From contig NC_045138.2 in assembly GCF_008831285.2 (NCBI RefSeq), positions 43,214,001-43,278,000 of the forward strand: a DNA stretch of 64,000 nt, written 5' to 3'. The notes beneath the pieces are model-generated. The model saw only the letters and a list, made by a program, of their open reading frames with translations. It made no database searches and had not been told where the DNA came from. Each line of letters starts with the position of its first letter. Position 1 is the first letter of the stretch. Positions 4,419 to 63,409 of the stretch are shown here, in pieces. A program made the position numbers and the translations under genes. The DNA comes from Nymphaea colorata. Lineage: Eukaryota.

Positions 4419-5711
4419 TTAGTAGATAGATGCATCAAACCTTGGTTCATAGAAGGTGACTTGACTGCTCCATGACTGAAGAACACAACCAGCAATCCAA
4501 GACCATGCCTTCCTGTCAATGTCATAAAGCAGACCTTTGCCCTGATTCCATGATGTAAAGCAGATCAAATTATCTTGCCCAAAGCATTCGAATCGTTCGG
4601 CTGATAATCTCAACAGAGATTTAAATAGCCTCTGCGGCATTCTACCTATCTCTACCCACACAGTATTGCTATGATCCAATTCCCAAATCCTCATACTCTG
4701 ATGGGTGCTGTACATACCTATCCTTCCAACCAGAAACAAACGCTTGTACGTGCCAGCAACAAGGTAACCATCTAAAAGAGATTTAGGAAATTTGACTGGG
4801 ATGTGCTCCCAATAGCCTGTATCAAGTCTATACATCATCAACCCCGGCGGCGAAAGGGCCTCAAGATAGATTCTAGAATCACAAAATGCTATTTTGGAAG
4901 AACAGAGGTTAACCGCAGGCATTACTTGATGCAGAGACCAACTATTTGATTTGGAATCATATACCTCAGTGGGCAAAGTTCTCTCTGCATATATATCGCT
5001 TGTAGCAATCACTTTGAAGGATCTGTCCTCTCTATCAACAACCAATATCAGATGGCGCTGCTGATTATGATGCATAGTTGGTAATGCACGCCAAGTTTGA
5101 GTAAGAGGGTTACAAACTACAGTTTTGAAACACAACCCGTCTAACCCTGAAAAGCATACCAGGCCACCTGAAGAGCCAACCAACAAAAACGCCCACTCGG
5201 GCAGGAAGGAAAATGGGAGCTTGTACCATGTTTTGAGCGGCAAGCTGAAAACCGAGCACTGAGGAGTCTGCAGATTTTTCCAAAACGCAAGAAGGCAAGG
5301 GCCATGAGAAGGGACTCGCCCATGAAACTTGATGAAACCAACGTCAGATATAATCGAATTCCAGCGTTTACATACAGAGCGCAGCTTAAAAAGCACAAAC
5401 GGAGGCACCCTTGCCAGGATTTCATTCAGAAGGTCCTCAGGAAGGAAAGCCCAAATGCTGTCTTCCATTTGGATGTCAAGGTGAACAATTCTACTGAATG
5501 AAGCCACCACCTCTTCATCAAAACCCCGAGGTTTTGTTTTGAATACTTTCTGTCGCGAGGGACTACGGCTGCCACTTCGCCCAGAAGTCGTTCGTTTCAG
5601 GCGGTCTCCATCTGAAGCTGGTTCACTTCTCCCTGAGACCTGCCCCCTGCAACCTACTCGGCACCCAGACTCTTCATCTGCCCGAGCTTCTAGAACTAGT
5701 TTGCCATCCAT
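4419..5711 (-). CDS. F-box/kelch-repeat protein, At5g15710-like (430 aa from the first ATG)
   Basis: Uninterrupted ORF with F-box motif '[36 protein letters not shown]' followed by kelch/beta-propeller-like repeats ending '[11 protein letters not shown]'; recognisably similar to Arabidopsis At5g15710. First ATG is at 5711-5709, just after an acceptor-like TTTGTCAG, so an upstream exon is possible. Confidence 0.93.
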
Positions 5712-6956
5712 GGTCCGCTTCCCTGACAAACAAAGAAATCAGGAAAAGGAATTAATTTACCCCGAATGTCAAAATTGAAAAGACAAACAAAGGAAAAAGT
5801 AAAAAGAAAACTCAAACTTTCGCTCAGGAGGGAGGGGAAACGGGTAGACGTTCAACCCCAATCGAAAACCCTAAAACGCAAAACCAAGAAATGAAAATTT
5901 GAGTTGAAATTTTAGTATTTTGGAGCTGACGTTTTCTGATAAGCAATAGATAGACTAGTTTATGGCAAAAAGGGAAAGCTCCGATCCAATCAACTTTACC
6001 ATAAATCTTTAGAACGTTATTGAAAAGGAAAAAGTAGAAGAAAATTCTTAACACTGAACTGTCATCTAAACGAGCCGGTTAGAAAAACCTACGAAAGCCG
6101 GAACAGCATGATTTCTGACGTATAAGGACCCCAATATCAGAAAAATCACGACGACAGAAATTAAAACTGCTCAAAGATACGAAACCAAACCAAACCAAAC
6201 AGGAAAGCATATCTTTAAGAACGAAGAACGAGGCACCAAATAAAAACAACAATAGAAGCTGCGACACCTTTTCAAAACCTTCAAAAATCTCAGGAGAGGT
6301 TTGTGACATCCTAAGATTGGAAACGGAAAAGGAAGTCCTGTAAGAAACAAAGGAACTTGCAAATTTTGTATTCTAAATTTGGAGAGATAAAAAGGCGAGG
6401 TTCAGAAAACCTAATTTTGGTTGACGAGCTCCGGGCAATTTCATGAAGTGATAAAAGAAAAACAACGCGAAAACTACAAAGTCGACTGCGAAATCGATTT
6501 CGAAAGACGCAATTAGAGGGTACCTTTCTTCCCTTGCACGGTTTGGTTTTTCGAACCAGATAGGGGAAGGGAGGACAGAGGAACGCTCTCAAATCTTAAT
6601 CTGTATGTGGCCGGCCGGAGTGGCCCTCAAACAAAATAATAGAGACCCCGTTTTCCCTCTGATGGGTTCAACCACAGTTTGGATCTTATTCCATATTTAA
6701 TCGGACTATATGATCTGGTTCAAAAAATTAATCCGAACCTGGTTAGACGTCAAAGTAACCCAGTATTTGCATCATCAAAATTTTCATACCAAAACAATTT
6801 TGATGGATGCCTGACTCTAACGGGTATCTGATATGTAAACCATGTTTGGCGTGCTGTTTGTAGCCATTTTGAAGCTTATAAGCAACACGTGTTAGGTAAT
6901 TTCTCAAACCGTGTATATTGTGTTGAATCATTGAATCAACTGAAAACATAATATGA

Positions 6957-12336: not shown

Positions 12337-12572
12337 AGAGAATGCACCCTATTTATGAAAACAAGTGAATACAATAACAAATGTATGTGGAAAACAATCA
12401 TTTGATATGTACCTACATGGAACAACTTATTTTGTATTAATGAATTAATTATTAAACCCACTCTATTTATGAAAACAAGTGAATACAATAACAAATGAAT
12501 GTGGAAAACAATCATTTGATATGTACCTACATGGAACAACTTATTTTGTATTAATGAATTAATTATTAAACC
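12337..12572. repeat. Tandem duplication, 2 x 111 bp
   Basis: 'CTATTTATGAAAACAAGTGAATACAATAAC...GAATTAATTATTAAACC' is repeated; also visible as the repeated peptide in ORF 12309..12539. Confidence 0.9.
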
Positions 12573-15309
12573 ATGATATATGTAAAATTCATACCAATTA
12601 TCTTAAGAGGCAATGATTAATCACAATCTCTTATACATCTTCCTTAATCTAAGTTACATCATCATCAACGTTGTCACCTCAACACTTGGCAAATTTTGTG
12701 AATCTATATCACAATACTTATTGTCCTTAACATCGATTCCCAAGAGATCATACAGATCTCCAAGTCTTGTTTTAGTAACATGTCAATCATGTCCAATGAG
12801 ATCTTCTACATAAAAAAAAAAAACTTGTTGTGCTTGAGATGCTAGGGTGCACAGTTCTTCTCCCATATATCTGAACTTGATGCTGATATATGTGAATCTA
12901 AATTTGTCTTGTTTAATCCCATGATCATGTGAACTAAGTATATTGTATCATTCACATTTGAATAACACATACTCTAATGTCTCATTATAGCTAACCTCTA
13001 TAATGTCCATGACTAATTGATAATATGCAACTTCACAAATCACAGGTTCTTAACTCTTATGCCCGAAAAACTAGAAGCATGTACATTAACAAGTACACCA
13101 TTGTTTTGGTATGTCATATTTTTATCATTGTTTCTTATATGAAATCTAAACCCAATAATTGTAAAGCCTTTATATTTGAATGCAAATTTTCCTAGAAATT
13201 GAGACAACCTAACAATGCCTCCTAGTATATGCCAACTTTGATTGTCATGTATTTGGCAAAGCTGTCACATTGAAGATATAACTATTAGATGTAATAGACT
13301 TAATTCAATAAAACAAGGTAACATACTTATAAAATACAGAAACATGCATGATTTTGAAATAAATCTGGAAATGTTCCTTTGTGAACATGTTCAATGTTAT
13401 GAGGGCTTCTAGAGCATTGACATTGAACCAATCTCTAGCAATGCCTATACAGATGCATATAAGTTAATATGCTAATAAAACACACATCTATTGAATCAGT
13501 TAACATATGCATGTGTAATTCATACATTTGCACAAGATATAGCAGCACTATCATATGATTGAATAGTATATAATTGTGCACTTGTTGATGGATTAAGGAG
13601 TTAAGAATAATAAACATTGATGCGCCTAATGGACAACCTGCTCTAATGACATTGGATTTATCATCAAAATCTACGACATTTTCATTGTTTCTTTCTGGCC
13701 TATTGAAACATGTCTCTGTATCTCAAAAATAAAATGTCTGTTTTTTTATTCCATTTCCATAGTAGCATCAAATAAATGTTTGCTTTTTACATCTATGAGT
13801 CGTTGAAAGCTAACGACGATGTCCCATATAACACATTTTTCTGCTTTGCTTCTGTGTGCAACCATGTACATCTATGTAACAAATTGGACAAGCTAGTTTG
13901 CCTTTTGTATAGTATCATATCTTGGAAATTCATTTATAGTCTTCATCAAAGTAACACAGAGTTGAAATTATTCCCTTTTGTGAACATTAAATGTATATGT
14001 CCATCATTCCATAATTTCAATAATTCATCTACAAGTGGTTGAGACATGCATTTATTTTGTGTGTGTTATGGGCAATTGCTCTAGATGTCACTAATGATGA
14101 ATGGACATAAGGTTGCTTCATACATACTCAAGGTGACAGATTGTATGTGACCAAAAAATAGGTTAGATACTATAAGTTGAGCTCAATGTTCCACAGGGAT
14201 TGAAACCATCGCTTGCTAAACCCAGTCAAATATTTCGAGGGCCTGCTGCAAATGAAAAGTGAATTTCATCAAAGCTCTTCCATGCAACACCATTTGCTAG
14301 GTGTCTCAACACTTTTTGAGTTTCATCATGCTATGTCATCTATCGTACAACATCAAACATTATGAAAAATCTCGTCAATCACAGTGTAATTGGAAAGTAA
14401 TGCAAGTCGTCCTAGGTGACTTTTTGCCTTTTCTAGATGCCTTATTGTCAACTTGATGTTCGACTTCTTTCCATTGCAGTCCATCACATCTATCACATGT
14501 ATCTTTTGAGGTAGACTCATTCCTACATAACATGTAGTTATTTGGAGACATCAATTTTCTTGTAATCAAAACCCAAATCTATAAAGTCCTTTTAGGTTCA
14601 TAAACAATATTTGGTAACTGCACTCCTACAAAGAAAGCTTTGAGCAATAGTTCAAATAACATAATGAATCTTGTTGTTCCACCCACTTAGAATCTTTATA
14701 AGAAACAAGTGGACTAGGAAAGCTAATTTTTGCAGATCTTTTGCATCCTACATAAAGCTCCTCTTTTGCATTTCTAATCAATCTTTCATACAAGTTGTCG
14801 TCTTGTCCATCTTCATTAGCACAATTGTTAGGCCTGTTTGAAGCTGGTACATTTTCATGCATGTTAAAGACATCTTCAACCCCTTCATGCATGTCTTCAG
14901 CTTCAGCATCAGCTGGTTGGTTATCTGCAATCGTAGGTGGCAAAATTGATTCCCCATGAAAATGCCAGCAAACATGTCTCCATGAATCCATAGCATACAA
15001 TATTATCAACTGCATCTTTGACAGTTTAAGACCTAAAATTATTGCATTTCATGCAAAGACATCTCATCCTTCCATTGACTATGATATTATTTATTGCATT
15101 TCATACAAAAACATCTCATTCTTTCATTGACTATGGTATTATTGGTAATTAAAAGTCAATAAAATTGTGGAGCCCATTCAAATGTTCTACAAGATCTCTT
15201 CTCTTTGTGATCCAACCTTGACCTCCCATATTCTACTCTTCAACGTAAATACAAAAATCTAAGAATGTGTTAAATACCTATGAGGTCAATTCTATGAATA
15301 GATATTGAA

Positions 15310-15412
<103 letters not shown>

Positions 15413-15666
15413 AAATCCATCCTTCGTTACTCCAAACCCAGCTAAGCAAAATCGCTCAACTGGTGTGGGGCATTCATTTTTTTATTAAAAAAATGAAAAC
15501 AAGACGCTCAAAGCAGAGCATTGAGTGCCGTGGGAGGGGGAGGCATAAAAATAAAAATAAATGATGGGGAGCTGGCGAAGGGTATTGGCAGGGTGGTGGG
15601 AGGTTGCCACCTGACGGAGGTGACAACCTCCCCATCTAATGACCTCCCATTTTTTTCATTCATTTA

Positions 15667-15880
15667 GGATGCGTTTGATGCACAGGGAAGAATTTAACGT
15701 GGAAAATTTACCATGGTAAATTTTTTTGGAAAAAAAAAACAGGATGAAATTTAACCCTCTTCCGATTTGAGGTCATGTTTGATGCACAAGAAGAATTTAA
15801 CCTGGTAATTTTAACCCTGTTTGATACACAATGAAGAATTTAACCTGGTAAATTTAACCATGTTTGATGCACATGATAAA
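15667..15880. repeat. Harbinger subterminal repeat array
   Basis: About four copies of (T/C)GTTTGAT(G/A)CACA..GAAGAATTTAAC(C/G)TGG, each beginning with the TIR core GTTTGAT. Confidence 0.85.
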
Positions 15881-16549
15881 AAATTTAGGAGACTTTTTTT
15901 AGAAATGAAATAAGTTGTATGACAACATTGTGGCCTTTCAAGAAGAACCCAACTCAACAATAAATAAAAAACATCCAAGTGAACTAACATCCAACTTAAC
16001 ATGGTGATGACTTAAATAACACGTTCTGGATATTATTCACAATGTTGTTTGTAACCTGAAAATCGTTGCATATTGGAAACCAACGGCAAATGAGATCAAG
16101 TCTAACTATGTAAGGCGTAAGAATGAGTTTTGAAGTCACATAAGCAGATGCCATCAAAGTCGTTGCATATTGGAAAAATACATAAACAGATGCCATCAAT
16201 GTTGTTTGCATCCCTTTCATACAAGCAATCGATCCAGCCCCATTTGTATATGAAGAAAAATACATTAAATAAACTGTAATGGAAATCCAGCCTATAAACA
16301 AAAGGCTTCACCATGGTGTCAATTTGTGATGCAATTGGTAACAAGTAGTCAACTTGACAATGATTAACTAATATTCATCCAACACTGCAACCTGTATGAA
16401 AGTTTAAAAACATTCACCACAACTTGTTGTCCCATCCAGTACATAAGTTTAACGACTACAGATCCCACAAATAAAACCGTCACAGACTGCAACCTGTATG
16501 AAAGTTTAAAACATTCACCAAATATTGGTGTCCCATCCAGTACATAAGT

Positions 16550-16876
16550 TTAACGAGTACAGATCCAACAAAGAAAACAAGTAGTAACAAAACAAGCAAT
16601 CAAGAAAAGTGGAATGCGAGTCCGTCCATTCGTCTTCATCACTTCTTTCTCTTCCTTTGCGTTGACATCGACAATGTCCAATGGCCTACATAATTGCACA
16701 CTGTATTTGTTGTGGAGATATTCATTCATGTGATATTGAGCTACTTCAAAGGTATGAAATGATCTGAAGAGGGCACCCTTGTATCGATACACTAATGGTT
16801 GGCACTGCTCCCAACTGTTGTATATTCCTCGTGACGTACCTTCGAAGACGACATAGTACTTTTGGTGAGGCATCAT
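16550..16876 (-). CDS. Harbinger-borne 108-aa protein: RNase H1 N-terminal hybrid-binding (Cauli_VI/viroplasmin-like) domain plus C-terminal hydrophobic tail
   Basis: 'KYYVVFEGTSRGIYNSWEQCQPLVYRYKGALFRSFHTFEVA' matches the HBD pattern [FY]Y.V..G...G[IV][YF].[ST]W..C...V..[YF]..A.[YF]..F.[TS]...A. C-terminus is 'IPLFLIACFVTTCFLCWICTR*'. No stops or frameshifts; no RNase H catalytic domain. Expression is not shown. Confidence 0.8.
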   Translation of the reverse strand: MMPHQKYYVVFEGTSRGIYNSWEQCQPLVYRYKGALFRSFHTFEVAQYHMNEYLHNKYSVQLCRPLDIVDVNAKEEKEVMKTNGRTRIPLFLIACFVTTCFLCWICTR

Positions 16877-18130
16877 CTTCGTTCTCCTGTTGAAAACAAA
16901 ACAAATGTTAAACAACCACATGCAACAATGGTAAAGATAGATAAAATAAACTTACTATTCAATTGATAATCTGCAAACATTTGATTTGTTATAGTTGTTC
17001 TCAAGGGATTGTTGCTTCCCCGCTGGAGTGTTTGACTTTCAATTTCCGGTTCGCTTACGACAAAATTATCAATTGAAGGTGCGTCCTCATCACCAAATTG
17101 TTCAGCATTTGGATTGTGGTCAATTATGAAGTTGTGCAATACACATGTAGCAAGAACAATTTGAGCTTGTTTTTTGAATGGATACTGCACTTGCATTTTC
17201 AATATTGGAAAACGTGCTTTCAACATGCCAAAAGCTCTTTCTACTGTATTTCAGAGTGATGAATGCCTATGGTTGAATAATTCTTGTGGAGTTCTAGGTC
17301 TGCGTGCCCCCTGGGTGTCAAATTCTGACATATGATAACGATGTCCTCGATAAGGTGTTAGGAAACCAACAATGTTTGGATAACCCCCATCAGTAAGATA
17401 GTATTTGCCTATAATTGAACACACATTATGTAAACATTTGCACCTTTTTTTAAAAAGTAATGGATTGGTTGGTTGAAGTACGTACCTTTGGGGACCACAA
17501 ATGGATCCACTGGATGATCAAGTGCATTGTATAATACCCTTGAGTCTGTCGCACTTCTTTCCCATCCTGCCAAAACGTAGTGGAATCGACTGTCGAATCC
17601 AACTACAGCCATGACATTTTGCGAAATAAATCCTTTTCTATTATGAAATCTTGATTGCTCTGATGCTGCGACCCATGCAGGTACATGAGTGCCATCAATT
17701 GCTCCTAAACAATCCTAGATCCATATGTGCAAGTTAGTCATGTTGTATGTTGGATGTTGTACGCATTTTGTTTACTTTACAATTATGAAAATACCTGGAA
17801 ATATGGAAAGAATCGCTTCGATCTCTGAATTTTAGTTGGCATGTCATCGTTGGGCCGCTGGACAAAATCCTTACCCATTATACATATTGCTCGTAGTACG
17901 CAACTGACATACTTACTTATTGTTTGTCCAGAATGTTGAAAAGTATTCTGTGTGGCACGATTCCGTTCATTGTGTCCAATTGTCAACAAAAAAAATAGCT
18001 ACTTGTTCTTCTATGCTAATGTCACGAGCATCCTCCAATAATTTTCTACTTCTTAGAGTGTTACATAATGTCTGATATGTGTGTTGATCCATACGGAGTA
18101 AGTTGGTACAATTTCTAGGATGACCGTGAA
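16873..18130 (-). pseudogene. PIF/Harbinger DDE transposase (HARBI1-like), multi-exon, disrupted
   Basis: Motifs 'LLRMDQHTYQTLCNTLR', 'FQHSGQTISKY', 'DCLGAIDGTHV', 'GWERSATDSRVL', 'KYYLTDGGY', 'FNHRHSSL*NTVERAFGMLKARFPIL', 'TCVLHNFI'. GT-AG introns at ~17794-17716, ~17484-17410 and 16955-16887. Lesions: +1 T in a homopolymer (~17990), CGA>TGA at 17251-17253, and a missing N-terminus. Confidence 0.92.
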
Positions 18131-18615
18131 TCGCCAAAGACCTCGGCGAACTCGTCAAAGTATCTCCATAACTAGGGACCTATGTACTTTTTTCTGTTCG
18201 GGTATTTATGAAAAATATCATGTGTTCAAATGAACATGTAGTAAAGACATGTTAGAGATAACCTAATAGTAATATCTCTATAATGTACCTCAATATAGTC
18301 ATTCCATACTTGTGGGTCGACTTCAATACACTTGTTGATTGGGTCATACCCAAACCCGCTTGTATTCAAAATTTCTTTCATGACTGTCAAGTTTGGTTTT
18401 GAGTACTTCAATTTGTTTTTTATTTTCTCTTTACTGAATTCTGGACCGAATTTGTCTATCATGCCTTTTTCAATTACTGTATACGCTTTGGACTTCAATC
18501 CTCCACCAGATTTCATACCAGGGATGCGGGATTGCTCCACAAGAAGTTGGACTAAATAGTCCATTTGCACTTCAGTCCACGTAAGATTCTCCCTCGATGG
18601 ACCGCTGTCTTCCAT
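18128..18615 (-). pseudogene. Harbinger ORF1, Myb/SANT-like DNA-binding protein, truncated
   Basis: 'LTWTEVQMDYLVQLLVEQ...KEKIKNKLK...LNTSGFGYDPINKCIEVDPQVWNDYIE' (Myb_DNA-bind_3-like), donor GAG|GTACAT at 18288. The second exon 'KYPNRKKYIGP*LWRYFDEFAEVFGDS' has a damaged acceptor and a stop, then runs directly into transposase sequence. Confidence 0.88.
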
Positions 18616-20312
18616 GGTAATAATAACTTGGACAATATTTCTTGACAACTAGATATTTGAGTTTGAAGAATCTTGCATAACATGGACCAAGGAAAGACAC
18701 AAATGAATGATCAACAAAAAAAATGGAGGAGCCGTAAAACACATATCATATATGAAGACAATGGAACGAAGGTGATGAACACTCATAACAACATCAACAT
18801 CCAAAATGGAGAATTAACTAAAATAACATCCAGCACAGTGATGAACACTCATATAATACAAACCACTAACCCGCAGGAATTCCAAAATTCATGAATCTCA
18901 TTGACAACATCACTGTAATCACCTTACAATACAAAAGGAGAAACGAAGATTGTTCAGTGCACCCAGAGAAAGAGAAAGAAGGCACTTTTTCTCTTTTACA
19001 AGTCTACACAAGTGGATAAGATGTGAAACGATACACTCTTTTTCCATGTATCTGATTTCTGATATACAAGCAAAAAAGATGTTAACAATGAGCAGCAAAT
19101 GATTGATTGTTACAAAGAGTCAAATATAATCTTAGAAAAAGGAGAGCCACAAAGCTGATGCAGCCATATCCACAAGCGGAAAAAGGAAAACCACATCCAC
19201 GAAAGAGGCAATTACCATAGAACCTATTCATCTACTACGAAGTGAAGTAGCACCCTAAGAACAGTGAGCAAATCAGATTAATGAGGTCTTTTGGAAGGGA
19301 AGTTGTTTCAACACTTCTGCATCAAAGACTTCAAAACAAGGGGGCAGTCAGCTGGTATATCCGGCCGGAGACCAGCCTTCTATGCTCTGCTAAAATCGCA
19401 ACAAAGGGGATTTGAGAAATACCAGAAGTTGAGAAAACGAGGGCAATAGCAACAGCGACGGCGGATCGGAGGAGCGGCGACCGTGGCATTGGCGAATGCT
19501 GCCCTGTCTTCCCTGCCGGTCAGATGCCAGAAATGAATATATTAGGGAAACAAAGAAAGGGAGAAAAGGAGGGCATCGGAGAGCAAGAGAGAAAGGGAGA
19601 AAGAGAGAAAGGGAGATGCCATAGAACCTGTGAGCGACGGTGATTAGGGCACTGATTTGGGAGAAGACGAGGGCATCAGAGTGCAAGAGAGAAAGGGGGA
19701 AAGATCACCGGCAGAGCAGCGGAGCGGCGACGGTGAGTGCGGCGATGGCGACGGTGGGAGCGGCCTCTTGTGCGACAGTGAGAAGGCGACGGGGTCGAGC
19801 GAGGAGGAGCTGCGGGTGGAGGGAGGAAATGAGGGGGAAGGGTGTCGAGCGCGGGGGGAGAGGGCGTCGAGCGAGTGAAATTCCACCGGCTCGAAAGTCC
19901 GAGCTCGGAGCTTGGACTTTCAAGCGGGTGGAATTCCACCCGCTCCCATTTTGCGTTAAACGGGGTCAATTTCACCCTGTTTGATGCAATTTTAGTCGAG
20001 CGGGTGAAATTTCACCTGCCCGTACCATTTTTTCGGAAAAAAAGAACTTCAACCGGGCAATCAAATGCCCCCTTATGAAAAAAAGCGAGAGGAAGGGTGG
20101 CCATCGCCTCCCCCGGGTAGCGACCTACCACAACCCTGCCATCGCAGTCATGACCATCAGTGACGGCAGGGTGGCGGGAGGTCACTGCCCAGGGGATGTG
20201 ACGTTTGCTGCCGCTCAACACTCAGGGCGTCGAGGAGCACTTTTTTTTTTTAGTTTTTAAAGTAAAAAACACAGGCTGTCTTTCTTGGCTGGTAGTTGCA
20301 TCGTAATAGATG

Positions 20313-20388
<76 letters not shown>

Positions 20389-20448
20389 ACACAAATGTTG
20401 GTTACATAAATAACTAACTAATGATTTAAGCATATTCTTAATGATCTG

Positions 20449-36708: not shown

Positions 36709-39700
36709 GAGCTTGGTTTGTTGTTGGACTATCATAGAACCTCCCCATCAATCCTGGCTGCATCGCCTGAGACCCTCTGCGTTGCCCGTGTCTGCTGCTG
36801 CCCTCTGCTCCTCCGGCGCCGCCTGATCTCTTGCCTGACGTTGTTGCTTTTACCCAACGGAGTCACCTCCCACGTTCTGCCCGACATCGCCACTTCCGCT
36901 GCTGCTATTTGCTGTCACTGGACTGCCTTGGCAATGCTTGCAGAAGCTCCCTGCCGCTAATCGTCATCCCGCTGCCGCTGCCTTCATCTGTCTATCTGCC
37001 ATCGATGTCCTGTGCTGTTGTTGGTGCCCTTTGTTGATGTCAGTGCCGTTTTTTTGTTGCTGCAGCCTGGTTTGTGATCATGGCAGCGTCTTCCTCTTCG
37101 ACCATCAGCACTGATCAGACTGAAATGGGGGCTTATAGAACTGAGAATGTTCCGTTTCAGGTTACTACCATCCGTCTTACCAAGGAAAACTATCTTAAGT
37201 GGTCTACCGCCTTCACTATGGGTATAGCTGGTCGAGGCCATATTGCCTATGTGAATGGGAGTAAGGTTGAACCTACTGAAAATAGTATGGCTTGGGATAC
37301 TTGGTTTCTTGAGAACAACCAAGTAAAAATGTGGATTGTTAATTCAGTATCCTCAGACATTCAACCTCTCATTCTTCGTAAGAAAACTGCGAGAGATATG
37401 TGGATTATTTTTGAACAGATGTATGGTCAAAAGAAGAGAAAAGTTTGTGTGTATCAACTAATGAAGGACTTGTATGCTCTTCGACAAGGGGATCTCTCAG
37501 TCGCTGATTTCTACGCCGCATTAAAATCTAAGTGGGAGAATCTTGACTACCATTCTGATGATATCTGGAGTTGTCCTCATGACCAGATGCATTATATGAC
37601 CAGGGAGTGGGAGAATAGGATATTCCTTTTATTAGCCAGACTGAACGATGAATTCAAAAATATAAGGAGTCAGATTCTTAACTCTGAAGAATCATTCAGT
37701 ATTGAAGATGTTTATTCCCGTGTTGAAGCTGAAGAGCAAAGGCGGCTGGACATAAATGGGAGAAAGGGGGATCACATGTCTCACAATGAACAGTCAGCCT
37801 TTGTTAGTCGTGCCTCTATGGGAACTGCCCGTTCCTCCCATAAATGTACTCACCGCAAAAAACTAGGTCATGTTACGGAGTTTTGTTGGGACCAGCATCT
37901 AGAAAAGAAGAATAGTAGGGGGAGGTCTTCTGGTGGGAAGAAGCCTGTTTCGAATGCAATGAACCCTAGTGACGGTAAATTTTCTATTTCTACGGAACAG
38001 ATTTGTGAGCTGCGAGCATATTTGAGCCAGATTGATGTTGGTCAGGCAGACATGTCAGATGAGGTGCAGGTCAATCAGGCACTGGCCGTTTCGGGTGAAA
38101 AAGGTACTTCTTGCATGGGGGAGTGGATTGTTGATAACGGTGCCACTCATCACATGACTGGCAACCCCAAACTCTTTCATGACTACAAGCTATCCTCGGG
38201 AAAGGAACGTGTATCCCTTGCCGATGGTTCCTTTACCTCTGTGGCAAGAAAAGGGAGTCTTTATTTGTTGAACAATTTTTTAGTGCATGGAGCCTTGCAT
38301 GTTCCTCATCTTCCCTTAAATCTTTTATCTATTAGAAAGATTACCAAGGAACTGAACTGTGAACTTATCTTTTTTGAAAAACGTTGTGTTTTGTAGGAAT
38401 TGGTGACAAGGAAGAAAATTGGAATTGGTTTGCTGTCTGATGGTTTCTATCAGCTTCCTATACGTGTTGCTAGAGCTCTTATGTCAGTAGTTAGCAGGAC
38501 AGGGAAGAAGAAGGAAGAGTGTTGTCAGTTATTTTTGTATTGGCATGAACACGTTGGTCATCTCCCTTTTGGGATTTTGAAACAATTGTTCCTTAAATTA
38601 TGTTCCAGTTTGAACATTTCCATGTTATCTTGTGATGTGTGTCAGTTTGCAAAGCATGTTAGAGCTTCATATCAAATCTTAAATAGTTATGCTAATAAAG
38701 CTTTCTCCTTGATTCATTCTGATGTGTGGGGGCCCTCAGATATTCATTCTCGTGGTGGTTTTCAGTATTTTATGACTTTCATAGATGACTATTCAAGGTG
38801 TACTTTTGTTTATCTATTGAAAGACTGTAGCGAAGTGCCTCATATTATAGAAACCTTCATCCTCCTAGTGGAAAACCAGTATGGTGGGTCTGTCAAGACA
38901 TTCTGGTCCGATAATGCTCATGAGTATATGTGTCTCACTGTCGAGGAATTCCTTCGAAAGAGGGGGATTCTTCATGAGACATCATGTAGTTATACACCCC
39001 CTCAAAATGGAGTTGCTGAAAGGAAAAACCGTCAGTTACTTAATGTCACCAGAGCTTTATTGTTCCAAATGAATCTTCCAAAATATTATTGGGGAGATGT
39101 GGTTATTACTAGTGCCTATTTGATTAATCGCATGCCTAGTCGAGTGCTAAATGGTCGTACACCCTACTCCATGCTTCTAGGGAGTAGCCAACCTTTTCAC
39201 ATTCCTCCTCGTGTCTTTGGATGTGTGTTTCATTCATGACCACAGCCCGAATGTGAAAAAACTTGACCCCAAATCACTTGAGAGAATATTTATTGGGTAT
39301 TCTCCTACTCAAAATTCACATTGCCAAGGATGTCACATTCTTGGAACATATGTCTTATTTTGGTGAGAATTCTCTTCAGAGGGAGAAGTCAATGTCTAAG
39401 GAAGAGTATTCTCCAAGTCAGGAAATTCAGTTTACAGATTTTTTGGATTACAGGCACAAAGAAAATTGATCTGTTGAGGTGCTTGGAAAAGAAGAAGATG
39501 GGACGTCTGTTGAGGTGCATGAACAGGAAAGGGAGGGAGAGTGTTCTATGGGGATAGAAAGAGAATGCAATCGTCTATTTGGGCAGGTGTATTCTAGGAG
39601 AAGATTTTGTACTGACAAGGTGATTGATGGGGATAAGTCTACTCCGAATCTCAATCCTACTTCTTCCTTGGATGACCCAAGTCATGCTCAGAAGCAGCCT

Positions 39701-41125
39701 GTTGAGAGAGAAAGTCAGACAGAAAGTGAAAATGAGGATCTTCCCATTGCCATGAGAAAGGGTGTCAGGTCATATCCTCAACACCCTATTGGTAACTTTG
39801 TGTCTTATTCTAGATTGAGCACTAACTACAAACGTTTTGTATCCTCCTTGTCTGTGATTCCTATGAATGTTACAGAGGCTCAAAGTGACCCCAAGTGAAC
39901 TCATGCTATGCAAGAAGAGATGGAAGCCTTAGACAGAAATTGAACATGGGAAGTGGTAGAAATTTCTTGAAGCAACTCATTTGGTTGGGTCAAAATAGGT
40001 CTACACCATTAAGTACAAACCAGATGGAAATGTTGAGAGGTACAAAGCACGTCTGGTGGCCAAGGGGAGATCAGTCAGAAATATGGGATCGACTACATAG
40101 AGACGTTTGCTCCTATCGCGAAGATGAAGACCGTTAGAGTTATTATTTCTTTAGTGGTGCTGAAGGGTTGGGAGATGTGCCAACTCGATGTTAAAAATGT
40201 CTTTTTCAATGGAGATCTCGAAGAGGAAGTGTATATGTGTATGCCCCCAGGTTTTGAGAGACCTGAAAAATGCTGTAAGCTGAAGAAGGCCTTGTATGAG
40301 CTCAAACAGTCTCCCTGAGCATGGTTTGAACGTCTCAGACTTGTTATGAAGATATAATCCTAGCAAAGGACTTCTATATGTGAAACAAAGGTCTATTGAA
40401 ATTGAAGGGTATTTTGATGCAGACTGGGCAGGCTGTGTTGACATGAGAAGATCTACTTAAGGGTACTGTGTCTACTTGGGAGAAAATTTAGTTATTTGGA
40501 GAAGCAAGAGACAAGATGTTTGTTCCTGCTCAAGTACAGAGGCTGAATATAGGGTTGTTGCTACTGGAGTATCAGAGTTGTTATGGCTAAAGATCTTGCT
40601 GACTGATATTGGGATAGAAACTGAAGGGCCTATGAAGATGTATTGTGATAACAAGTCTGTGATTAACTTGGCTAATAATCCAATGCTTCATGATCGAACA
40701 AAGCATGTTGAGATTGACCGTCACTTCATCAAAGAAAGAATTGATGTCAAGGAGTTAACATTGCCATACATGAAGTCTGAAGATCAAACTGCTGATATTC
40801 TGACTAAAGCGTTACATGTAACTCCATTTGAGAGAAATGTATCCAAGTTGGGCATGTGTGATATGTATGCCCAACTTGAGGGGGAGTTTTGATGGATCTT
40901 GATGTATGGGTCCGGGTCTGGACCCGATCCAGTGAGTCCTGGTTTGGGCATACTTATACCATTGTAAACCATATTTCATGTTAATGAAGTTTTCTAAGAG
41001 AGAGAGGGTTTGGCAGCTAGTGGGTACCAGATCTCCTCACCCGTGGTTTTTTTTCCTCTAGTTGAGGGTTTTCCATGTTACATCTGTGTTCGATCTTCGT
41101 TTTTTGTACGTCTATTATTTCTACA
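36709..41125 (+). mobile_element. Ty1/copia element lacking its 5' LTR, with disrupted gag-pol and a 3' LTR (~40888-41125)
   Basis: gag 'IRLTKENYLKWS', zinc-knuckle remnant, protease 'WIVDNGATHHMT', integrase 'LIHSDVWGP...TPPQNGVAERKNR', RT '[19 protein letters not shown]', RNase H 'SSTEAEYR...RTKHVEIDRHFI...ADILTK'; PPT TTGAGGGGGAG at ~40877-40887. The RT core including YVDD is deleted at ~40350. Confidence 0.9.
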
Positions 41126-47519: not shown

Positions 47520-49660
47520 CGTTACAAGTTTTATCACCCAACTAATAAGTCATTTTTTAGATAAAAATTGTTCATTTTTTTGAGGATGTTGAGTTTGGGG
47601 AAGAAGATAAAGTAGAAAACATTGCCTTTGAGGATGATCCAGATTCTCCTCATATAAATGTTCTAGGAAATGGTCAAGCCTTTATTCGTAAAATTATTCT
47701 ATCAACAAATTTGGATGAAGGCCAGGACGATGATATTGTTATTCAAACCACCAAAGAACAAACCCAACAATATCAAAAAAGTCAAGTAGAGGTGCCACTT
47801 ACGAGGTAGGCTAGAGAAAGGAGAAGTGTTGCTTCAAATGACTATGTTATCTATCTCCAAGAATATCAAAATGGTACAGACTTAATGTAAGATGGTCTAA
47901 TGAAGTTCCAACAATGCAATACAAAGTTCCAAATCTAAAAAATGGTTAGATGACATGAATGACAAGATAAAGTCTATGATGAATAATGATGTGGAGGACA
48001 TTGTCTTGTTACCTAAAGGTGTGAAACTCATTAGTTGTAAATGGATACTTAAAACCAAAAGAGATTCATCATATAACATTAAAAGTTATAAAAAACACTG
48101 TGTGGCAAAAGATTTCACTAATAAAGAATAAATTAATTATACATAGATATTCTCTCTAGTTTCATTGAAAAACTCTTATATAATTATTATGGCACTAGTG
48201 GCCCATTTTGATTTATAACTACAGTACATATGTAAAGATAGTGTCTCAAAGGCAACATTCATGAGACAATATATATGGTGAACTAGAAAATTTTGTTTCA
48301 AGAAATGCAAAGGAAATGGTTTGTAAACTTATGAAATTCTTTTATAACATAAAACCATTTTCCTATCAATGGTATCACAAATTTCATTAGGTTGTTCATT
48401 TGTCTTTAAGACTAATATGCTTGATGCATGCAAATATTATAAGTTCTGTGCACTGAATTTGTTTTTCTAGTCTTGTATGTCGATAATATATTGGTTGCAA
48501 GCAAAGGTTTAGACTTATTGCACAAAACCAAGAGATTTATATTGACAAAATTTGAAATAAATGATCTTGGTATTGTCTCTTTTGTATTAAAGATCTAGTT
48601 ATTTCTAGATCATTTGATAAGAAATTCATCTATGCCCAAGTTTCTCATTAATGGTAGCACAAATTTCATCAGGTTGTGGTTTCATTTGACTTTGAAACTA
48701 ATTGTGGTTTCATTTGACTTTGAAACTAATATGGCTGATGAATGTGTGTATTATAAGTTTCTGTGGGGGTAAATTTGTTTTTCTAGTCATGTATGTAGAT
48801 GACATACTGCTTGCTAGTAACGATGTAAATTTTCTACACATAACCAAGAGATTTCTTTCAATAAAATTTCAAATAAAAGAGATCGATAATGTCTTTTTAT
48901 ATTACGGTTCTAAGTATTTCAAGGCCATTCTTGATATATTCTTAGATTATTATAAAAAAAGTGATATCGATAGGGTACTACAAATATATGTTGTAAAAGA
49001 ATGTAAACCAAGAGATACCTCTATTGTTGAGGGTGACAAATTCAATAATAGTCAGTGTATCAAGAATGAAGTTGAAACTAAAGGGATAGAAAGGATTCCA
49101 TATGCAACTTTGGGGAGTCTGGTATATGCTCAAGTCTATACTCGTCCAATCATTATATATATCATTGGAATATTGGGCACGTATCTAAGCAATTCTTGTA
49201 TGGATCATTGGAGAGTAACCAAAAGGGTAATGCAGTATCTATAAATAACAAAAGATTTCATGCTCATATATAGGAAATCATATTAGTTGGAGATCGTTGG
49301 ATACTCAGAGTCTGACTTTGATGGGTGTCAAAACATTCATAGATCCACTTGGGTTATATTTGGTGGTTGGAAGGGCTAGATCATAGAAAAGTGTTAAGTA
49401 GACACAAGTAGGTACTTCCACCATTGCAGCAGAGTTCATAACGTGTCATGACACATCCAATCATGTATATGACTTCAGAATTTTGTGATAGGGTTGTACA
49501 TTGCGAAAGACCTTTGAAGTTATTTAGTGACAATAATTCAACAGTTGAATATTATAATAATAGTTGTACTTCATCAAAGTAGTGCATATCAACATTAAGT
49601 TTTTGGTTATTAAAGAAAGAATATAAAATTTTGTCACTTGATTATGCAGGTTTAGTGGGA
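47520..49660 (+). mobile_element. Decayed Ty1/copia RT-RNase H fragment with a duplicated RT segment
   Basis: 'FFEDVEFG', 'KGVKLISCKWILKTKRDS', 'FVFLVMYVDDILLASND', 'IPYATLGSLVYAQVYTRP', 'HWRVTKRVMQYL', 'GYSESDFDG', 'STIAAEFI'. Confidence 0.85.
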
Positions 49661-59384: not shown

Positions 59385-62300
59385 ATGGCTGAAAACAGTA
59401 AATCTGAAGGGTCCACATGGCTGGGAATTCATTCTCTTATGGAACTACGATGAAACTTAATGGCTCAAATTATGAAATATGGTCTAGGGTATTCATAATG
59501 TCGGTGGCTGGTCATAGGAAGAAATATATTCTTGAGGAGGATGAACCTATTGAGAAAAAATGAATATTTGCTGCGTGGGATGAAGATAATTATATTGTTA
59601 TGTCTTGGATTATGAATAGTGAGGAGTCTCATATAGCCCCAACTATTGCATATTATACCAAGGCCAAGGATATGTGGTCTTTCTTGAAAAAGACATACTC
59701 GCATGCCACTAATGTAATCAAAATCCTACAACTAGAAGAGGAGTTATGCAACATTCGACAAGGGGATCAGGACCTATCTCAATATTTTGCTACTTTGACT
59801 GCTGCATATGAACGGTTAAAGGCTCTTTGTCCACCTTGCCAGCATTGTTATGCATTACACGTTGAGACTTGTATGGTGGCGAAGTTTTTATCTGGCCTAT
59901 CTTTAGAATACTCTGTGGCAAAGTCTCAAATTCTAACAGGCAGTGAACTTCCAGATTTAGCAGACACGTATAATAGGCTGAGTCGTTTTGCAGCCACTCT
60001 TCCTCAGACTACGCATGACACACCAGTCTCTGCACTTGTGATATCAGGAGGACGGGGCCCTAGTTCTTTTGGAGGCACTAGGGAACGTGGTACAGGCCGT
60101 GGTGCTGGACGTGGCAGATTTCAGTGCTCTTATTGTGGCAAAATTGGTCATCTAGAGGATCGTTGTTGGGACAAACATCCTCATCTCAGGTCTAATGTTT
60201 CCTCTGAACGTGGTGGAGGTAGAATCACCACAAGCAGAGGTCCTTCTTCATCCCAAGCAACTCATTCAAAGGCAACAATATCTATGGTTGAGTCTTCTAC
60301 TGATCCTTCTATATCTATGTCATATTCTCTTAACCTAAGTAAGGATGAATATGATCGTGTTCTTGCTCAGAGGTCTGCCTCTACATCTACCAATGCTGCT
60401 GCTGTAGATTCAGCATTCTCTGTTGGTGATCCTACTGCTGATCCAGGTATGACATGGATGATAGACTCGGGCGCTTCTAGACATTGTTGTAATCAACCAC
60501 AAAATTTTTCATCATTTGTCAGATTTTCTACACCACAGCATGTTAAGCTGGCTGATGGCAAGTTGTCCCCTGTTTTGGGTAGCGGTGATATTTACCTTCC
60601 ACATTTAGGCACTATTACACATGTGCTATATGTTCCTCAGTTTCCTGTTAATTTGATATTTGTGAAGCAGAGCGTGAGGGCCTTTATTTTTTGTCAATTC
60701 CAGTTGATGTTGCTGCATCTTCAATCCCTTCCAAGCCTTCTCCCTTCCAATGGCATCTCAGACTGGGTCATCCTTCAGTACCAAAACTTCGTCGCATGTT
60801 TCCAGATATTCCTGCATCAGAGTCCTTCTTATGTGATGTCTGTCAGCTGGGCAAGCATACACGGAGCAGCTTTCCTTCGAGTCAGAGTCCTTTTGATCTC
60901 ATTCATGTGGATGTATGGGTCCTAGTCAGGTTCCTTTTCGGTCATGTTTTCGATATTATCTTGTTCTAGTTGATGATTTTACTAGAGTCAGTTGGGTCTT
61001 CTTGTTAAGGGAAAGATCTGAAGTCATATGTATTCTTCAAAAATTTATCAAGGAAAGAAAAACTCAGTTTGGACTCATTGTCCAAAATATTCGCACTGAT
61101 AATGCTCTTGAATTCAAGTCTTCCATTCTACTTCAGTTTTATGCCGACCATGGAATTCGACCTCAATATACTTGTCCACATACGTCCCAACAGAATGGTG
61201 TAGCCGAACGCAAACATCGGCAACTCCTAAACGTAACTCGTACCCTCATGTTACATTCTCACATGCCTGCCTATTTTTGGGGTGATGCTATTCTTACTGC
61301 GTGTTACCTCATTAATAGACCATATTCCAATTCAAATTCTATATCCAGGGCGTTCATTATTTCATTTACCTCCCAAAGTTTTTGGATGCACTTGCTTTGC
61401 ACATATCCTAGGCCCGAACAAAAGCAAACTTGCTGCCCAAGCCATCAAATGTATCTTTATTGGCTATTCAGTCAATCAAAAGGGATACAAATGCTTTGAT
61501 CCCTTGACCAAGAAAGACATTATCAGTGCAGATGTTACCTTCTTTGAGTCTCGTCCTTATTTCCCTCCGTCAAGTCCCTCTTCATTTGAGATGCATGCAC
61601 CTATACCACTTCCTATTCCACCAGTGTCACTTGAGTCATTTCCATCATCTCAACCTAAGTCACATGAACGTTTTCTTGAGCCTCCGTTGGTTTACACTCG
61701 TCGCCTAGGTCCCTCTCTCAACCGTCCACCAGCATCGTCTCAAGAGGTAAGCTCTACTGATAAGACTGACTCAGGTTTAAGTGATGACTATTCTGCAGCA
61801 GATCTCCCTATTGCTATTTGCAAGGGCAAGCAACAGTGTACCTTACATCCTATATCTAATTCTGTCTCTACTGCTCATCTGAGTACACGCTTAGTACAGT
61901 TTGATCAAGTTCTATCTAGTCATGTTATCCCGTCCTCGCACCATCACGCCCTGTTAGATCCACATTGGCGACAAGCTATGCAGGAGGAAATGGATGCTCT
62001 TCTTTCTCGGGAGACTTGGGATTTGGTAGACCCCCCACCACGCTGTGATGTGGTTGGCTCACGATGGGTATTCACCATCAAGTATCATTCTGATGGGTCA
62101 GTTGAAAGGTTCAAGGCCCGTCTTGTCGCAAAAGGGTATACTCAGACTTATGGTGTTGACTTCTTTGAGACCTTTTCGCCTGTGGCTCGGTTGGGCACTA
62201 TTCGCTTGATTATCTCTCTTGCTGTCCAACGAGAGTGGCCTCTTTTTCAATTGGATGTAAAAAATTCCTTTCTGTATGGAGACCTTTCTGAAATCGTTTA

Positions 62301-63409
62301 TATGCAGCAACTACCTGGTTTTGAGCGACAAGGGGAGTGTTCCAAGGTATGCAAGTTAAAGAAGGCTATTTATGGACTCAAACAGAGTCCCCGTGCATGG
62401 TTCCAAAAGCTTACTGAAGTGTTATCTAAGTGTGGATTTCGCGGATCCCAGCTTGATCACTCATTGTTTATCAAGCGAGGCTCAGCAGGACTTGTGATAT
62501 TGATTGTCTACGTGGATGATATTGTTCTTACAGGGGAAAATGATCAAGAGATAGCTCAAACAAAGGAGTTTTTACAGCAACACTTTGTTACGAAAGACCT
62601 TGGACAACTTCGTTATTTTCTTGGTATTGAGGTGACTCATAGTAATAAAGGAGTTGTAGTGTCTCAAAGGAAATATGTTCTTGATCTTCTACAGGAAACG
62701 GGACTATTGGGGGCTAAACCTGCCACACTTCCCATGAATCCTCGCATTCATATACATGATGATGACTCAGAGCCGTTTGACTCTAGATCTTACAGATCTC
62801 TGATAGGGAAACTGTTATATTTGACTGTCACTCGTCCCGAAAAGTTCACTGGGATGCAGCTCTAATGATTGTAAGATACTTGAAATCAGCCCCGGGAAAG
62901 GGGCTATGGTTCAAGAAAGGAGAAAGTGTTGACATCGAGGCGTATAGTGATGCTGATTATGTTGGATCTGTAGATGACAAGAAGACTACTACCGGTTTTT
63001 GTGTCTTTGTGGGCAGTAATCTTATTTCCTGAAGGAGCAAGAAGCAGAATGTTGTGGCTCGTTCTAGTGCTGAGTCGGAATATAGGGCTATGGCTCAAAC
63101 TGCGGCTGAAATGTCATGGGTTAGATCACTACTTGTAGAGTTGGGTGTCTTAGTGAATCTCCCAATGAAGATGTATTGTGACAACAAGGCAGCTACATAT
63201 ATCGCTAACAATCCTGTCCTGAGAGGACTAAACACATTGAAGTGGATTGCCACTATATTCGGGACTTAGTTCAAGGAGGAATTGTTAGCACTATTCATGT
63301 CTCCTCAGAAGATCAGGCAGCAGATATTCTCACTAAAGCTCTTCCCATAGGCGATTTCCTGAGATGTTGTAACAAGCTGAGCATGATTGATATATATGCT
63401 CCAGCTTGA
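59385..63409 (+). pseudogene. Copia gag-pol polyprotein, disrupted by stops, frameshifts and small deletions
   Basis: Zinc knuckle 'CSYCGKIGHLEDRC', protease 'WMIDSGASRH', 'WHLRLGHP', integrase 'QQNGVAERKHR', RT 'LIVYVDDIV', RNase H 'ARSSAESEYR...ADIFTK'; split over ORFs 59600..60925, 60915..61499, 61282..62865 and 63054..63269. Confidence 0.93.

What the first reader, a model, noticed from the sequence alone, without database searches (positions are those of the whole stretch)
16550..16876. PIF/Harbinger transposon carries a third gene: a stand-alone RNase H1-type RNA:DNA hybrid-binding domain with a hydrophobic tail
Seen: between the TIRs (15667-20072), co-oriented with and directly downstream of the transposase, lies an intact 108-codon ORF. 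Residues 6-46 (KYYVVFEGTSRGIYNSWEQCQPLVYRYKGALFRSFHTFEVA) follow the RNase H1 N-terminal / caulimovirus P6 (Cauli_VI) pattern. There is no catalytic RNase H domain, and the protein ends in IPLFLIACFVTTCFLCWICTR. Established: autonomous PIF/Harbinger elements canonically have two genes (Myb/SANT and DDE); this domain binds RNA:DNA hybrids or dsRNA in RNase H1 and occurs in CaMV P6, a translational transactivator and silencing suppressor; some plant DNA transposons carry accessory anti-silencing genes (VANC in VANDAL MULEs). Inference: this may be an accessory module for R-loop or dsRNA binding, counter-silencing or translational control. I do not know a description of this three-gene arrangement, but could not check the literature.
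Basis: partly seen in the sequence, partly recalled or inferred. Interest (0 to 1): 0.9.

Follow-up and report, generated by a model that had tools for sequence, protein, structure and literature searches.

The report
Plant transposon's third, RNA-duplex-binding gene
A water-lily cut-and-paste transposon of a family known for two genes carries a conserved, transcribed third gene for a small protein made of the RNA:DNA-gripping handle of RNase H1 plus a predicted membrane anchor; the same pairing turns up in a second, distant plant transposon, and the protein likely helps the element evade host RNA silencing.

Summary
Confirmed and extended. ORF 16550-16876 (-) encodes 108 aa: an RNase H1 hybrid-binding domain (Pfam Cauli_VI, E=6e-15; predicted fold matches human HBD), a disordered linker and a Cys-rich hydrophobic tail, without a nuclease. 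It lies in a TTA-flanked PIF/Harbinger element of Nymphaea. This copy is dead (Myb and transposase broken), but the gene is a family feature: 12 of 20 N. thermarum gene models join it to other parts of the element, sister copies are transcribed on the sense strand, and the domain is conserved far more than the linker (30-31/42 against 9-10/27). After splicing, the transposase stop overlaps its ATG. The same domain-plus-tail gene follows a non-sister PIF transposase in 1 of 120 metagenome loci, so it is patchy, not universal. Related stand-alone proteins occur in Nicotiana, Rhododendron, Ilex and Senna (context not seen). Ten literature searches found no description; Repbase was not searchable. 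The scan earlier noted HBD-only genes in fungal KDZ transposons, on other DNA. Function is untested. Best guess: a membrane-tethered duplex binder that dampens silencing (about 0.4). Rivals: a P6-like translation helper, a spliced transposase or Myb domain, or a passenger.

The parts
16550..16876 (-). Third ORF, 108 aa: HBD + linker + hydrophobic tail
16736..16861 (-). RNase H1 hybrid-binding domain (Cauli_VI), residues 6-47; equivalents of human Y29, W43, F58 and K59 kept
16613..16693 (-). Variable, predicted-disordered linker, residues 62-88
16553..16612 (-). C-terminal hydrophobic helix with 4 Cys, predicted tail anchor, residues 89-108
15667..20072 (-). PIF/Harbinger element, order Myb > transposase > ORF3; defective copy
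15664..15682 (.). TTA target duplication and 3' terminal inverted repeat
   Evidence: sister-copy ends in reads, table 7
20057..20075 (.). 5' terminal inverted repeat (10 of 16 bases match) and TTA target duplication
18289..18615 (-). Myb/SANT gene exon 1 (Myb_DNA-bind_3, E=6e-14)
18125..18207 (-). Myb exon 2 remnant (acceptor mutated, in-frame stop) ending at the internal deletion junction
   Evidence: loose ends at 18125 and 18128
16956..18127 (-). DDE transposase remnant in three exons (about 18127-17795, 17714-17486, 17408-16956); N-terminus deleted, frameshift near 17990, stop at 17253
16887..16955 (-). Last transposase intron (69 nt); second possible donor 4 nt inside it
   Evidence: junction in 38 reads of a sister copy, table 5c; RefSeq models P0170 and P0172
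16873..16886 (-). Last transposase mini-exon; its TGA overlaps the ATG of ORF3 (ATGA)
16384..16578 (.). Tandem duplication (about 100 bp unit, 91% over 94 bp) covering the last codons of ORF3 and its 3' flank
15673..15873 (+). Subterminal GTTTGATGCA repeats (3 here, 1 at 19979; 5 in the window against 0.28 expected)

Best explanation
The ORF is a conserved, transcribed third gene of a water-lily PIF/Harbinger family, and its protein is predicted to be a membrane-anchored binder of RNA-containing duplexes that likely shields the element's transcripts from host silencing. Shown: the domain, its place at the 3' end on the sense strand, its presence across the family, sense-strand RNA from sister copies, conservation centred on the domain and tail, and a second occurrence in another plant PIF lineage. 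Inferred: (1) it is made as its own short protein, from an mRNA spliced into the acceptor just before its ATG or by re-initiation at the transposase stop-start overlap; (2) the tail inserts into the ER or nuclear-envelope membrane with the domain facing cytosol or nucleoplasm; (3) the domain grips dsRNA or RNA:DNA duplexes without cutting them, with avidity from membrane clustering (and from tandem copies in Nicotiana and Senna relatives); (4) this hides element-derived duplexes from the small-RNA machinery. Odds: functional accessory gene 0.8; membrane-tethered duplex binder 0.65; anti-silencing as its purpose 0.4.
For: Family feature: 12 of 20 N. thermarum gene models with this domain also match the transposase (9), Myb or leader of the window element; P0009, P0013 and P0174 carry Cauli_VI with DDE_Tnp_4 or Myb_DNA-bind_3. 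Expression: stranded runs X23 and X24 put reads on the element's sense strand over the ORF (X23 depth 216 against 1.3 at 16748-16869). Constraint: against three full-length members of a second subfamily, HBD 30-31/42, linker 9-10/27, tail 12-13/20 identical; read variants are synonymous at 4 of 7 places in the domain and 1 of 13 in linker and tail (Fisher p=0.03). Binding face: among 24 Nymphaea domains Y29 is kept in 22, R35 in 20, W43 in 23, F58 in 22, K/R59 in 22 (contact residues from PMC9603397 passages). Tail: hydrophobic C-terminus in 7 of 25 Nymphaea and 18 of 30 other plant proteins against 3 of 227 remaining proteins. Recurrence: L045 has a PIF transposase followed on the same strand by an HBD-plus-tail ORF (Cauli_VI E=4.5e-14), in a clade apart from Nymphaea. 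Precedent for anti-silencing accessory genes in plant DNA transposons: VANC (PMC5735166, abstract).
Against: No binding, localisation or silencing data. The homologous P6 domain is dispensable for RNAi suppression (PMC5902531). Two DNA-phosphate contacts of human HBD are changed in the family (R57 aliphatic, K60 to Ser), although such changes are common elsewhere (K60 to Ser in 179 of 397 other domains). Most PIF elements lack the gene: 1 of 120 loci, 1 of 31 with at least 1.5 kb downstream, 0 of 12 with at least 3 kb, so it is not needed for transposition. The RNA comes from sister copies (6 of 5,497 laid RNA reads are 99% alike or more), and nothing shows translation. The variant test used only the 40 rows printed of 530; no true dN/dS was possible. 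18 of 25 Nymphaea models lack a hydrophobic tail by my cut-off (many are truncated or chimeric predictions). L045 is one contig, cut inside the tail, with a stop in its transposase and no Myb gene.
Confidence: 0.4

Rival explanations
1. The protein works like a reduced caulimovirus P6/TAV: its domain would bind TOR or 60S ribosomal proteins at the ER and raise translation or re-initiation on the element's tandem ORFs, or damp TOR-linked defences.
For: The P6 'dsR' domain, which holds this motif, binds TOR, eL18 and eL13 and lies in mini-TAV (PMC5902531 passages). In a quick 47-column tree, 3 of 3 Nymphaea, 19 of 20 other plant and 6 of 6 P6 domains fall in one 36-row group (SH-aLRT 98). P6 proteins are 7 of the first 13 structural hits in the viral library. 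The three genes are tandem on one strand, and the ATGA stop-start is compatible with all 24 Nymphaea sequences (second residue M, I or K, all A-initial codons).
Against: That tree group also holds 8 viral, bacterial-type or unplaced rows, rests on few columns, and the P6 loci were fetched with a pattern that shares the family's signature. The window domain is only 34% identical to its best P6 match, less than to RNase H-type domains (52%). The same review places TAV's eIF3/eL24 links in a larger complex that a 108-aa protein is unlikely to supply (inference). In L045 the ORF does not overlap the transposase (790 bp apart). The A-initial codon can be explained by the need for the transposase stop alone.
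Confidence: 0.2
2. It is mainly an alternatively spliced C-terminal module of the transposase or the Myb protein, which would give the transpososome a hybrid-binding domain and a membrane tether (for example for R-loop-guided targeting or sequestration).
For: A splice acceptor lies just before the ATG both here and in L045. The donor 4 nt downstream gives an in-frame transposase-HBD fusion, as drawn in models P0007, P0009, P0171, P0173 and P0174; models P0013 and P0011 join the Myb end to it. 229 X23 reads leave the element at this acceptor with a mixed consensus (agreement 0.62), so several upstream exons may be used.
Against: A second GT at +5 is part of the ordinary GTAAGT consensus (established knowledge). 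The one junction read in RNA (38 reads) uses the first donor and leaves the HBD out of frame (table 5c); RefSeq N. colorata models end at the overlapping stop. The required phase differs between Nymphaea and L045. The fused models are automatic predictions that use many different donors.
Confidence: 0.15
3. It is an R-loop-binding decoy at the inner nuclear membrane that would protect or tether RNA:DNA hybrids at the element, in competition with host RNase H1.
For: The residues that read the DNA strand of a hybrid (Y29, W43, F58 equivalents) are kept; the fold matches the hybrid-bound human domain best; a small tail-anchored protein can reach the inner nuclear membrane (established knowledge, recalled).
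Against: Cut-and-paste transposition has no hybrid intermediate; R57 and K60 equivalents are lost; no localisation data.
Confidence: 0.13
4. It is a captured passenger that rides with the element and has no role for it.
For: Absent from most PIF loci sampled; fungal Helitrons also carry a captured PF01693 gene (PMC4289320 passages); intactness in this copy is within chance.
Against: Domain and tail are conserved well above the linker across subfamilies; the same architecture and 3' position recur in a non-sister lineage; no RNase H-bearing donor appears among the Nymphaea hits.
Confidence: 0.12

Closest known systems
PIF/Harbinger DNA transposons (orf1 > TPase order as in MtPH-M/MtMaster, PMC2213677)
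   Same: TWA target duplication, G-initial TIRs, DDE_Tnp_4 transposase with introns, Myb/SANT gene upstream on the same strand.
   Different: A third coding unit at the 3' end. The passages read in PMC4482050 and PMC2213677 describe two ORFs only.
Hybrid-binding domain of RNase H1 (PF01693; PDB 3bsu, 1qhk)
   Same: Sequence, predicted fold and the aromatic contact residues.
   Different: No catalytic domain; a C-terminal hydrophobic helix instead; Phe at human R32; R57 and K60 not kept.
dsR domain of caulimovirus P6/TAV
   Same: Same Pfam domain without nuclease, shared YxV[FY]xG signature, carried by a plant mobile element.
   Different: P6 is 514-534 aa in the three loci measured, with other functional regions; 34% best identity over the domain; no tail-anchor layout seen.
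VANC anti-silencing proteins of Arabidopsis transposons (PMC5735166)
   Same: Accessory gene of a plant DNA transposon beside the transposase.
   Different: Unrelated protein; VANC causes sequence-specific DNA demethylation, while this ORF has a duplex-binding domain and a predicted membrane anchor, with no function shown.
capE of Pleurotus Helitron helpo1.3 (PMC4289320)
   Same: PF01693 gene inside a DNA transposon.
   Different: Fungal Helitron, described as a captured gene in one long copy; no family-wide conservation or tail in the passages read.

Membership tests
PIF/Harbinger superfamily | TWA target-site duplication | tested here: met
   TTA on both sides; definition from PMC4482050
PIF/Harbinger superfamily | Short TIRs | tested here: met
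   Imperfect, 10 of 16 bases; sister-copy ends in reads agree
PIF/Harbinger superfamily | DDE transposase of the DDE_Tnp_4 type | tested here: met
   Window fragment scores 17.7 bits, under the cut-off, but its exons are 78-83% identical to sister proteins, and the near-complete P0174 scores E=5e-27
PIF/Harbinger superfamily | Myb/SANT second gene | tested here: met
   Myb_DNA-bind_3 E=6e-14
PIF/Harbinger superfamily | Autonomous element: both ORFs intact | tested here: not met
   Deletion, frameshift, two stops, lost acceptor
RNase H1 hybrid-binding domain (PF01693) | Profile score above the curated cut-off and matching fold | tested here: met
   55.6 bits against 21; target TM 0.88 to 3bsu
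RNase H1 hybrid-binding domain (PF01693) | Hybrid-contact residues | tested here: inconclusive
   Y29, W43, F58, K59 kept; R35 kept in 20 of 24 family members but Thr in this copy; R57 and K60 changed
RNase H1 hybrid-binding domain (PF01693) | Binds RNA:DNA hybrid or dsRNA | not testable with these tools
   Needs a binding assay
RNase H1 enzyme | Catalytic RNase H domain | tested here: not met
   No PF00075 or PF13456 match
Caulimovirus P6/TAV | Full-length multi-domain transactivator of about 500 aa in a viral genome | tested here: not met
   108 aa, similarity confined to the domain, transposon context
Tail-anchored membrane proteins | Single hydrophobic helix at the C-terminus and no N-terminal signal | tested here: inconclusive
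   Hydropathy 2.39 and a predicted helix at 90-107; no dedicated membrane predictor and no localisation
Transposon anti-silencing proteins (VANC-like in role) | Lowers silencing of its own element | not testable with these tools
   Needs an in-planta assay

The most novel reading that the evidence does not exclude
Several plant PIF/Harbinger lineages encode an overlooked class of tail-anchored accessory proteins, from the same domain lineage as the dsR domain of caulimovirus P6, that act at the ER or nuclear envelope as a viral-style counter-defence or translation helper for a cut-and-paste DNA transposon; the many small 'RNase H1 N-terminal domain' genes in plant annotations would largely be these, and fungal DNA transposons would have made the same capture.
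Probability: 0.25. Interest if true: 0.9.

Novelty: new variant of a known kind. Interest (0 to 1): 0.67.

Why it matters
PIF/Harbinger elements are described as two-gene systems, and few accessory proteins of plant DNA transposons have a known role. A conserved third gene with a nucleic-acid-binding face and a membrane anchor gives a small, directly testable candidate for how such elements deal with RNA-based defence. It would also explain a scattered set of plant 'ribonuclease H-like' annotations whose counts range from 0 to 25 among 25 genomes (PMC7247446, supplementary table row), and it bears on where the dsR domain of caulimovirus P6 came from.

Tried and rejected
No whole genome is held for this window, so copies could not be counted and dN/dS could not be computed. 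A metagenome scan with the Nymphaea transposase found no relative among 61 pattern matches. The transposase pattern found nothing in viral contigs. A Myb-like stretch seen by eye in two Ilex HBD models scored no better than shuffles (5.0 and 3.8 bits against 4.2; 6.3 against 7.2; hhalign probability under 5%) and is not used. The run search listed no RNA holder on record and 20 rows holding the stretch or a part of it; only X1 and the raw RNA runs X22-X24 were laid, so the other rows are not used as evidence. Summed contig depth in X1 is not a copy number and is not used as one. The 5' leader was not covered by laid reads, so leader-to-ORF splicing is untested. The mixed loose-end consensus at the acceptor could not be resolved. 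No Rfam family in 15300-20400. The spliced sequence before the ATG was folded without a shuffle control and is not interpreted. The Atlas answered once (30 of 30 hits were Cauli_VI-only clusters; the three shown are 80-116 aa, 86-124 members, commonest Streptophyta; scores 0.89-0.90, a lead only); no Atlas answer was obtained for fused forms. Host plant RNase H1 domains could not be identified among the hits, so origin from the host enzyme was not tested on a tree. Both trees are quick trees with no one-clade test; 34 of 121 loci were dropped from the transposase tree for short cores, and the domain tree kept 152 of 473 rows after de-replication. Nowotny 2008 was not held; contact residues are second-hand. 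No complex prediction was run, as no protein partner is claimed. Earlier finding e1-9506303 was not relevant.

Full report
Observation. The ORF at 16550-16876 (-) is real and reads 108 residues. Residues 6-47 match Pfam Cauli_VI, the RNase H1 N-terminal hybrid-binding domain (HBD), at E=6e-15, and nothing else matches. The PDB relatives are the yeast and human HBDs. An AlphaFold2 model from a 9-row alignment has a confident HBD, a disordered linker and a C-terminal helix; it superposes on human HBD at 0.8 A and on caulimovirus P6 and viral RNase H domains. The closest proteins are from Nymphaea colorata (88% over the full length) and N. thermarum, so the window is from a water lily.

The element. 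TTA duplications flank 15667-20072, with imperfect TIRs and subterminal repeats. The gene order on the minus strand is Myb, transposase, ORF3, the orf1 > TPase order of the MtPH-M lineage (PMC2213677, passages). This copy is dead. An internal deletion joins Myb exon 2 to mid-transposase; reads of intact sisters run on in both genes at 18125 and 18128. There is a frameshift near 17990 that 828 of 877 X23 reads lack, a stop at 17253, and a lost acceptor and a stop in Myb. ORF3 alone is whole, but that has about a one-in-three chance at this rate of decay.

How it is read. The transposase has a last intron at 16887-16955. With the first donor the protein ends a few codons later at a TGA that overlaps the ATG of ORF3; two RefSeq N. 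colorata models end the same way. All 24 Nymphaea sequences have M, I or K as second residue, which fits a kept ATGA overlap. A donor 4 nt further on would fuse the transposase to ORF3 in frame, and five automatic models draw that. In RNA, 38 reads of a sister copy join the first donor to this exon with five letters of their own, which leaves ORF3 out of frame; 229 more reads leave at the acceptor with a mixed consensus. So ORF3 is on at least some transposase transcripts, and other upstream exons may be used. Stranded runs X23 and X24 read the sense strand over ORF3, but only 6 of 5,497 laid RNA reads are at least 99% alike, so the RNA is from other copies.

A family feature. Of 20 N. thermarum gene models with this domain, 12 also match the transposase (9), the Myb gene or the leader of the window element. 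None of the Nymphaea hits carries an RNase H domain, which speaks against a recent copy of a host RNase H1 exon. Against three full-length members of a second subfamily, identity is 30-31 of 42 in the domain, 9-10 of 27 in the linker and 12-13 of 20 in the tail. Among the 20 printed read variants inside the ORF, 4 of 7 in the domain and 1 of 13 elsewhere are silent (p=0.03); these come from the 40 rows printed of 530, so this is weak support. The hybrid-contact residues named in PMC9603397 (passages, second-hand for Nowotny 2008) are mostly kept: Y29, R35, W43, F58 and K/R59 in 20-23 of 24 domains. R57 and K60 are changed, as in many other natural HBDs.

Beyond water lilies. A profile built here from 456 HBD domains hit one of them, L045, at 55 bits; the next best locus scored 3.4. 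L045 has a transposase, then 790 bp, then a splice acceptor and an ORF with HBD, a proline-rich linker and a hydrophobic stretch cut by the contig end. Its transposase nests among elements with Myb downstream, apart from the Nymphaea clade (quick tree, 89 rows). Its spacer weakly matches the region behind the Myb gene of L038 (73% over 92 bp, E=9e-4), so it looks like a Myb-deleted derivative; its four closest relatives end before the place where the gene would lie. The host of L045 is not given; I take it for a grass from recalled resemblance only. The gene is not general: 1 of 31 loci with 1.5 kb downstream and 0 of 12 with 3 kb have it. Protein searches show the same layout in Nicotiana (two HBDs, many copies), Rhododendron, Ilex and unnamed plant-like records, and HBDs with GRF fingers in Senna. 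A hydrophobic C-terminus is present in 18 of 30 of these, 7 of 25 Nymphaea models and 3 of 227 other proteins; the first seeds of the plant set were picked partly by their tails, so this contrast is inflated. Their genomic context could not be read. The domain count varies from 0 to 25 among 25 plant annotations (PMC7247446, one passage and one supplementary row), as expected of transposon cargo.

Origin. In a 47-column quick tree of 152 domains, 3 of 3 Nymphaea, 19 of 20 other plant and 6 of 6 caulimovirid P6 domains share one 36-row group (SH-aLRT 98) with eight other rows, one of which later proved to be the Senna protein. This is a lead for shared ancestry with P6, not proof: the columns are few, the P6 loci were fetched by a matching pattern, and host plant RNase H1 was not in the set.

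Mechanism. Cut-and-paste elements have no RNA:DNA intermediate, and most PIF elements do without this gene, so it is an accessory. A kept binding face, no nuclease and a kept tail suggest a membrane-tethered protein that holds RNA-containing duplexes. I commit to shielding of the element's RNA from silencing (0.4), by analogy with the anti-silencing role of VANC (PMC5735166, abstract only) and from my recall that plant small-RNA processing is partly membrane-associated. Against it, the same domain in P6 is dispensable for RNAi suppression and instead binds TOR, eL18 and eL13 (PMC5902531, passages), which supports the translation-helper rival (0.2). A spliced module of the transposase or Myb (0.15), a nuclear R-loop decoy (0.13) and a passenger (0.12) remain.

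Novelty. Searches for Harbinger with Cauli_VI, RNase H1, hybrid binding domain or third ORF returned no paper. Searches with viroplasmin or the accession numbers gave a fungal Helitron with a captured PF01693 gene (PMC4289320, passages), the Coix genome paper, and two papers seen only as listings (PMC4083042, PMC13269303). A wider search listed ten papers, of which I read passages of one survey, which gives two ORFs (PMC4482050). Subscription journals, Repbase and the supplements of these papers, apart from one Coix table row, were not seen and may hold a mention. Two earlier notes of this scan report HBD-only genes in fungal KDZ/Kyakuja transposons; I did not test them, and none concerned this plant arrangement. 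Verdict: a new variant of a known transposon kind, real at family level, function open; interest 0.67.

Noticed in passing
window 15411-15666 and 20073-20320: The two flanks form an imperfect palindrome (global score 105 against at most 72 in 200 shuffles): the element sits at the centre of a hairpin, MITE-like element that itself lies between TA microsatellites. In X1, 8 contigs show the same few flanking bases before a related TIR (table 7), a hint of repeated insertion into this target.
   Followed up: partly
P0148 (Senna tora): Two Cauli_VI domains alternate with two GRF zinc fingers before a coiled-coil-like end. I recall GRF-finger proteins with coiled coil and hydrophobic tail as cargo of plant DNA transposons; one search did not find this in print.
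   Followed up: partly
P0051, P0176-P0192 (Nicotiana): Multicopy family with two tandem HBDs, an acidic linker and a hydrophobic tail, annotated 'ribonuclease H-like'; genomic context not seen.
   Followed up: partly
window 12500-15100 (-): Degenerate transposon relic that by eye resembles a CACTA transposase (label recalled; no Pfam hit for the one ORF scanned).
   Followed up: no
window 37038-40889, 48702-49241 and 59564-62862 (+): Copia-type retrotransposon gag/pol pieces.
   Followed up: no
window 4422-5738 (-): F-box protein with Kelch-type propeller.
   Followed up: no
L045:1150-1422: A hairpin (about 95 bp, 82%) and a 67-bp direct repeat lie in the spacer between the transposase and the HBD gene.
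   Followed up: no
P0017, P0018, P0064, P0131, P0132, P0146, P0149: Cauli_VI domains fused to PIF1 or UvrD helicases in metagenomic proteins.
   Followed up: no
runs X23 and X24: Two libraries of one study differ strongly (4,822 against 227 laid reads from equal input) and cover different parts of the element, so different copies seem to be active in different samples.
   Followed up: no
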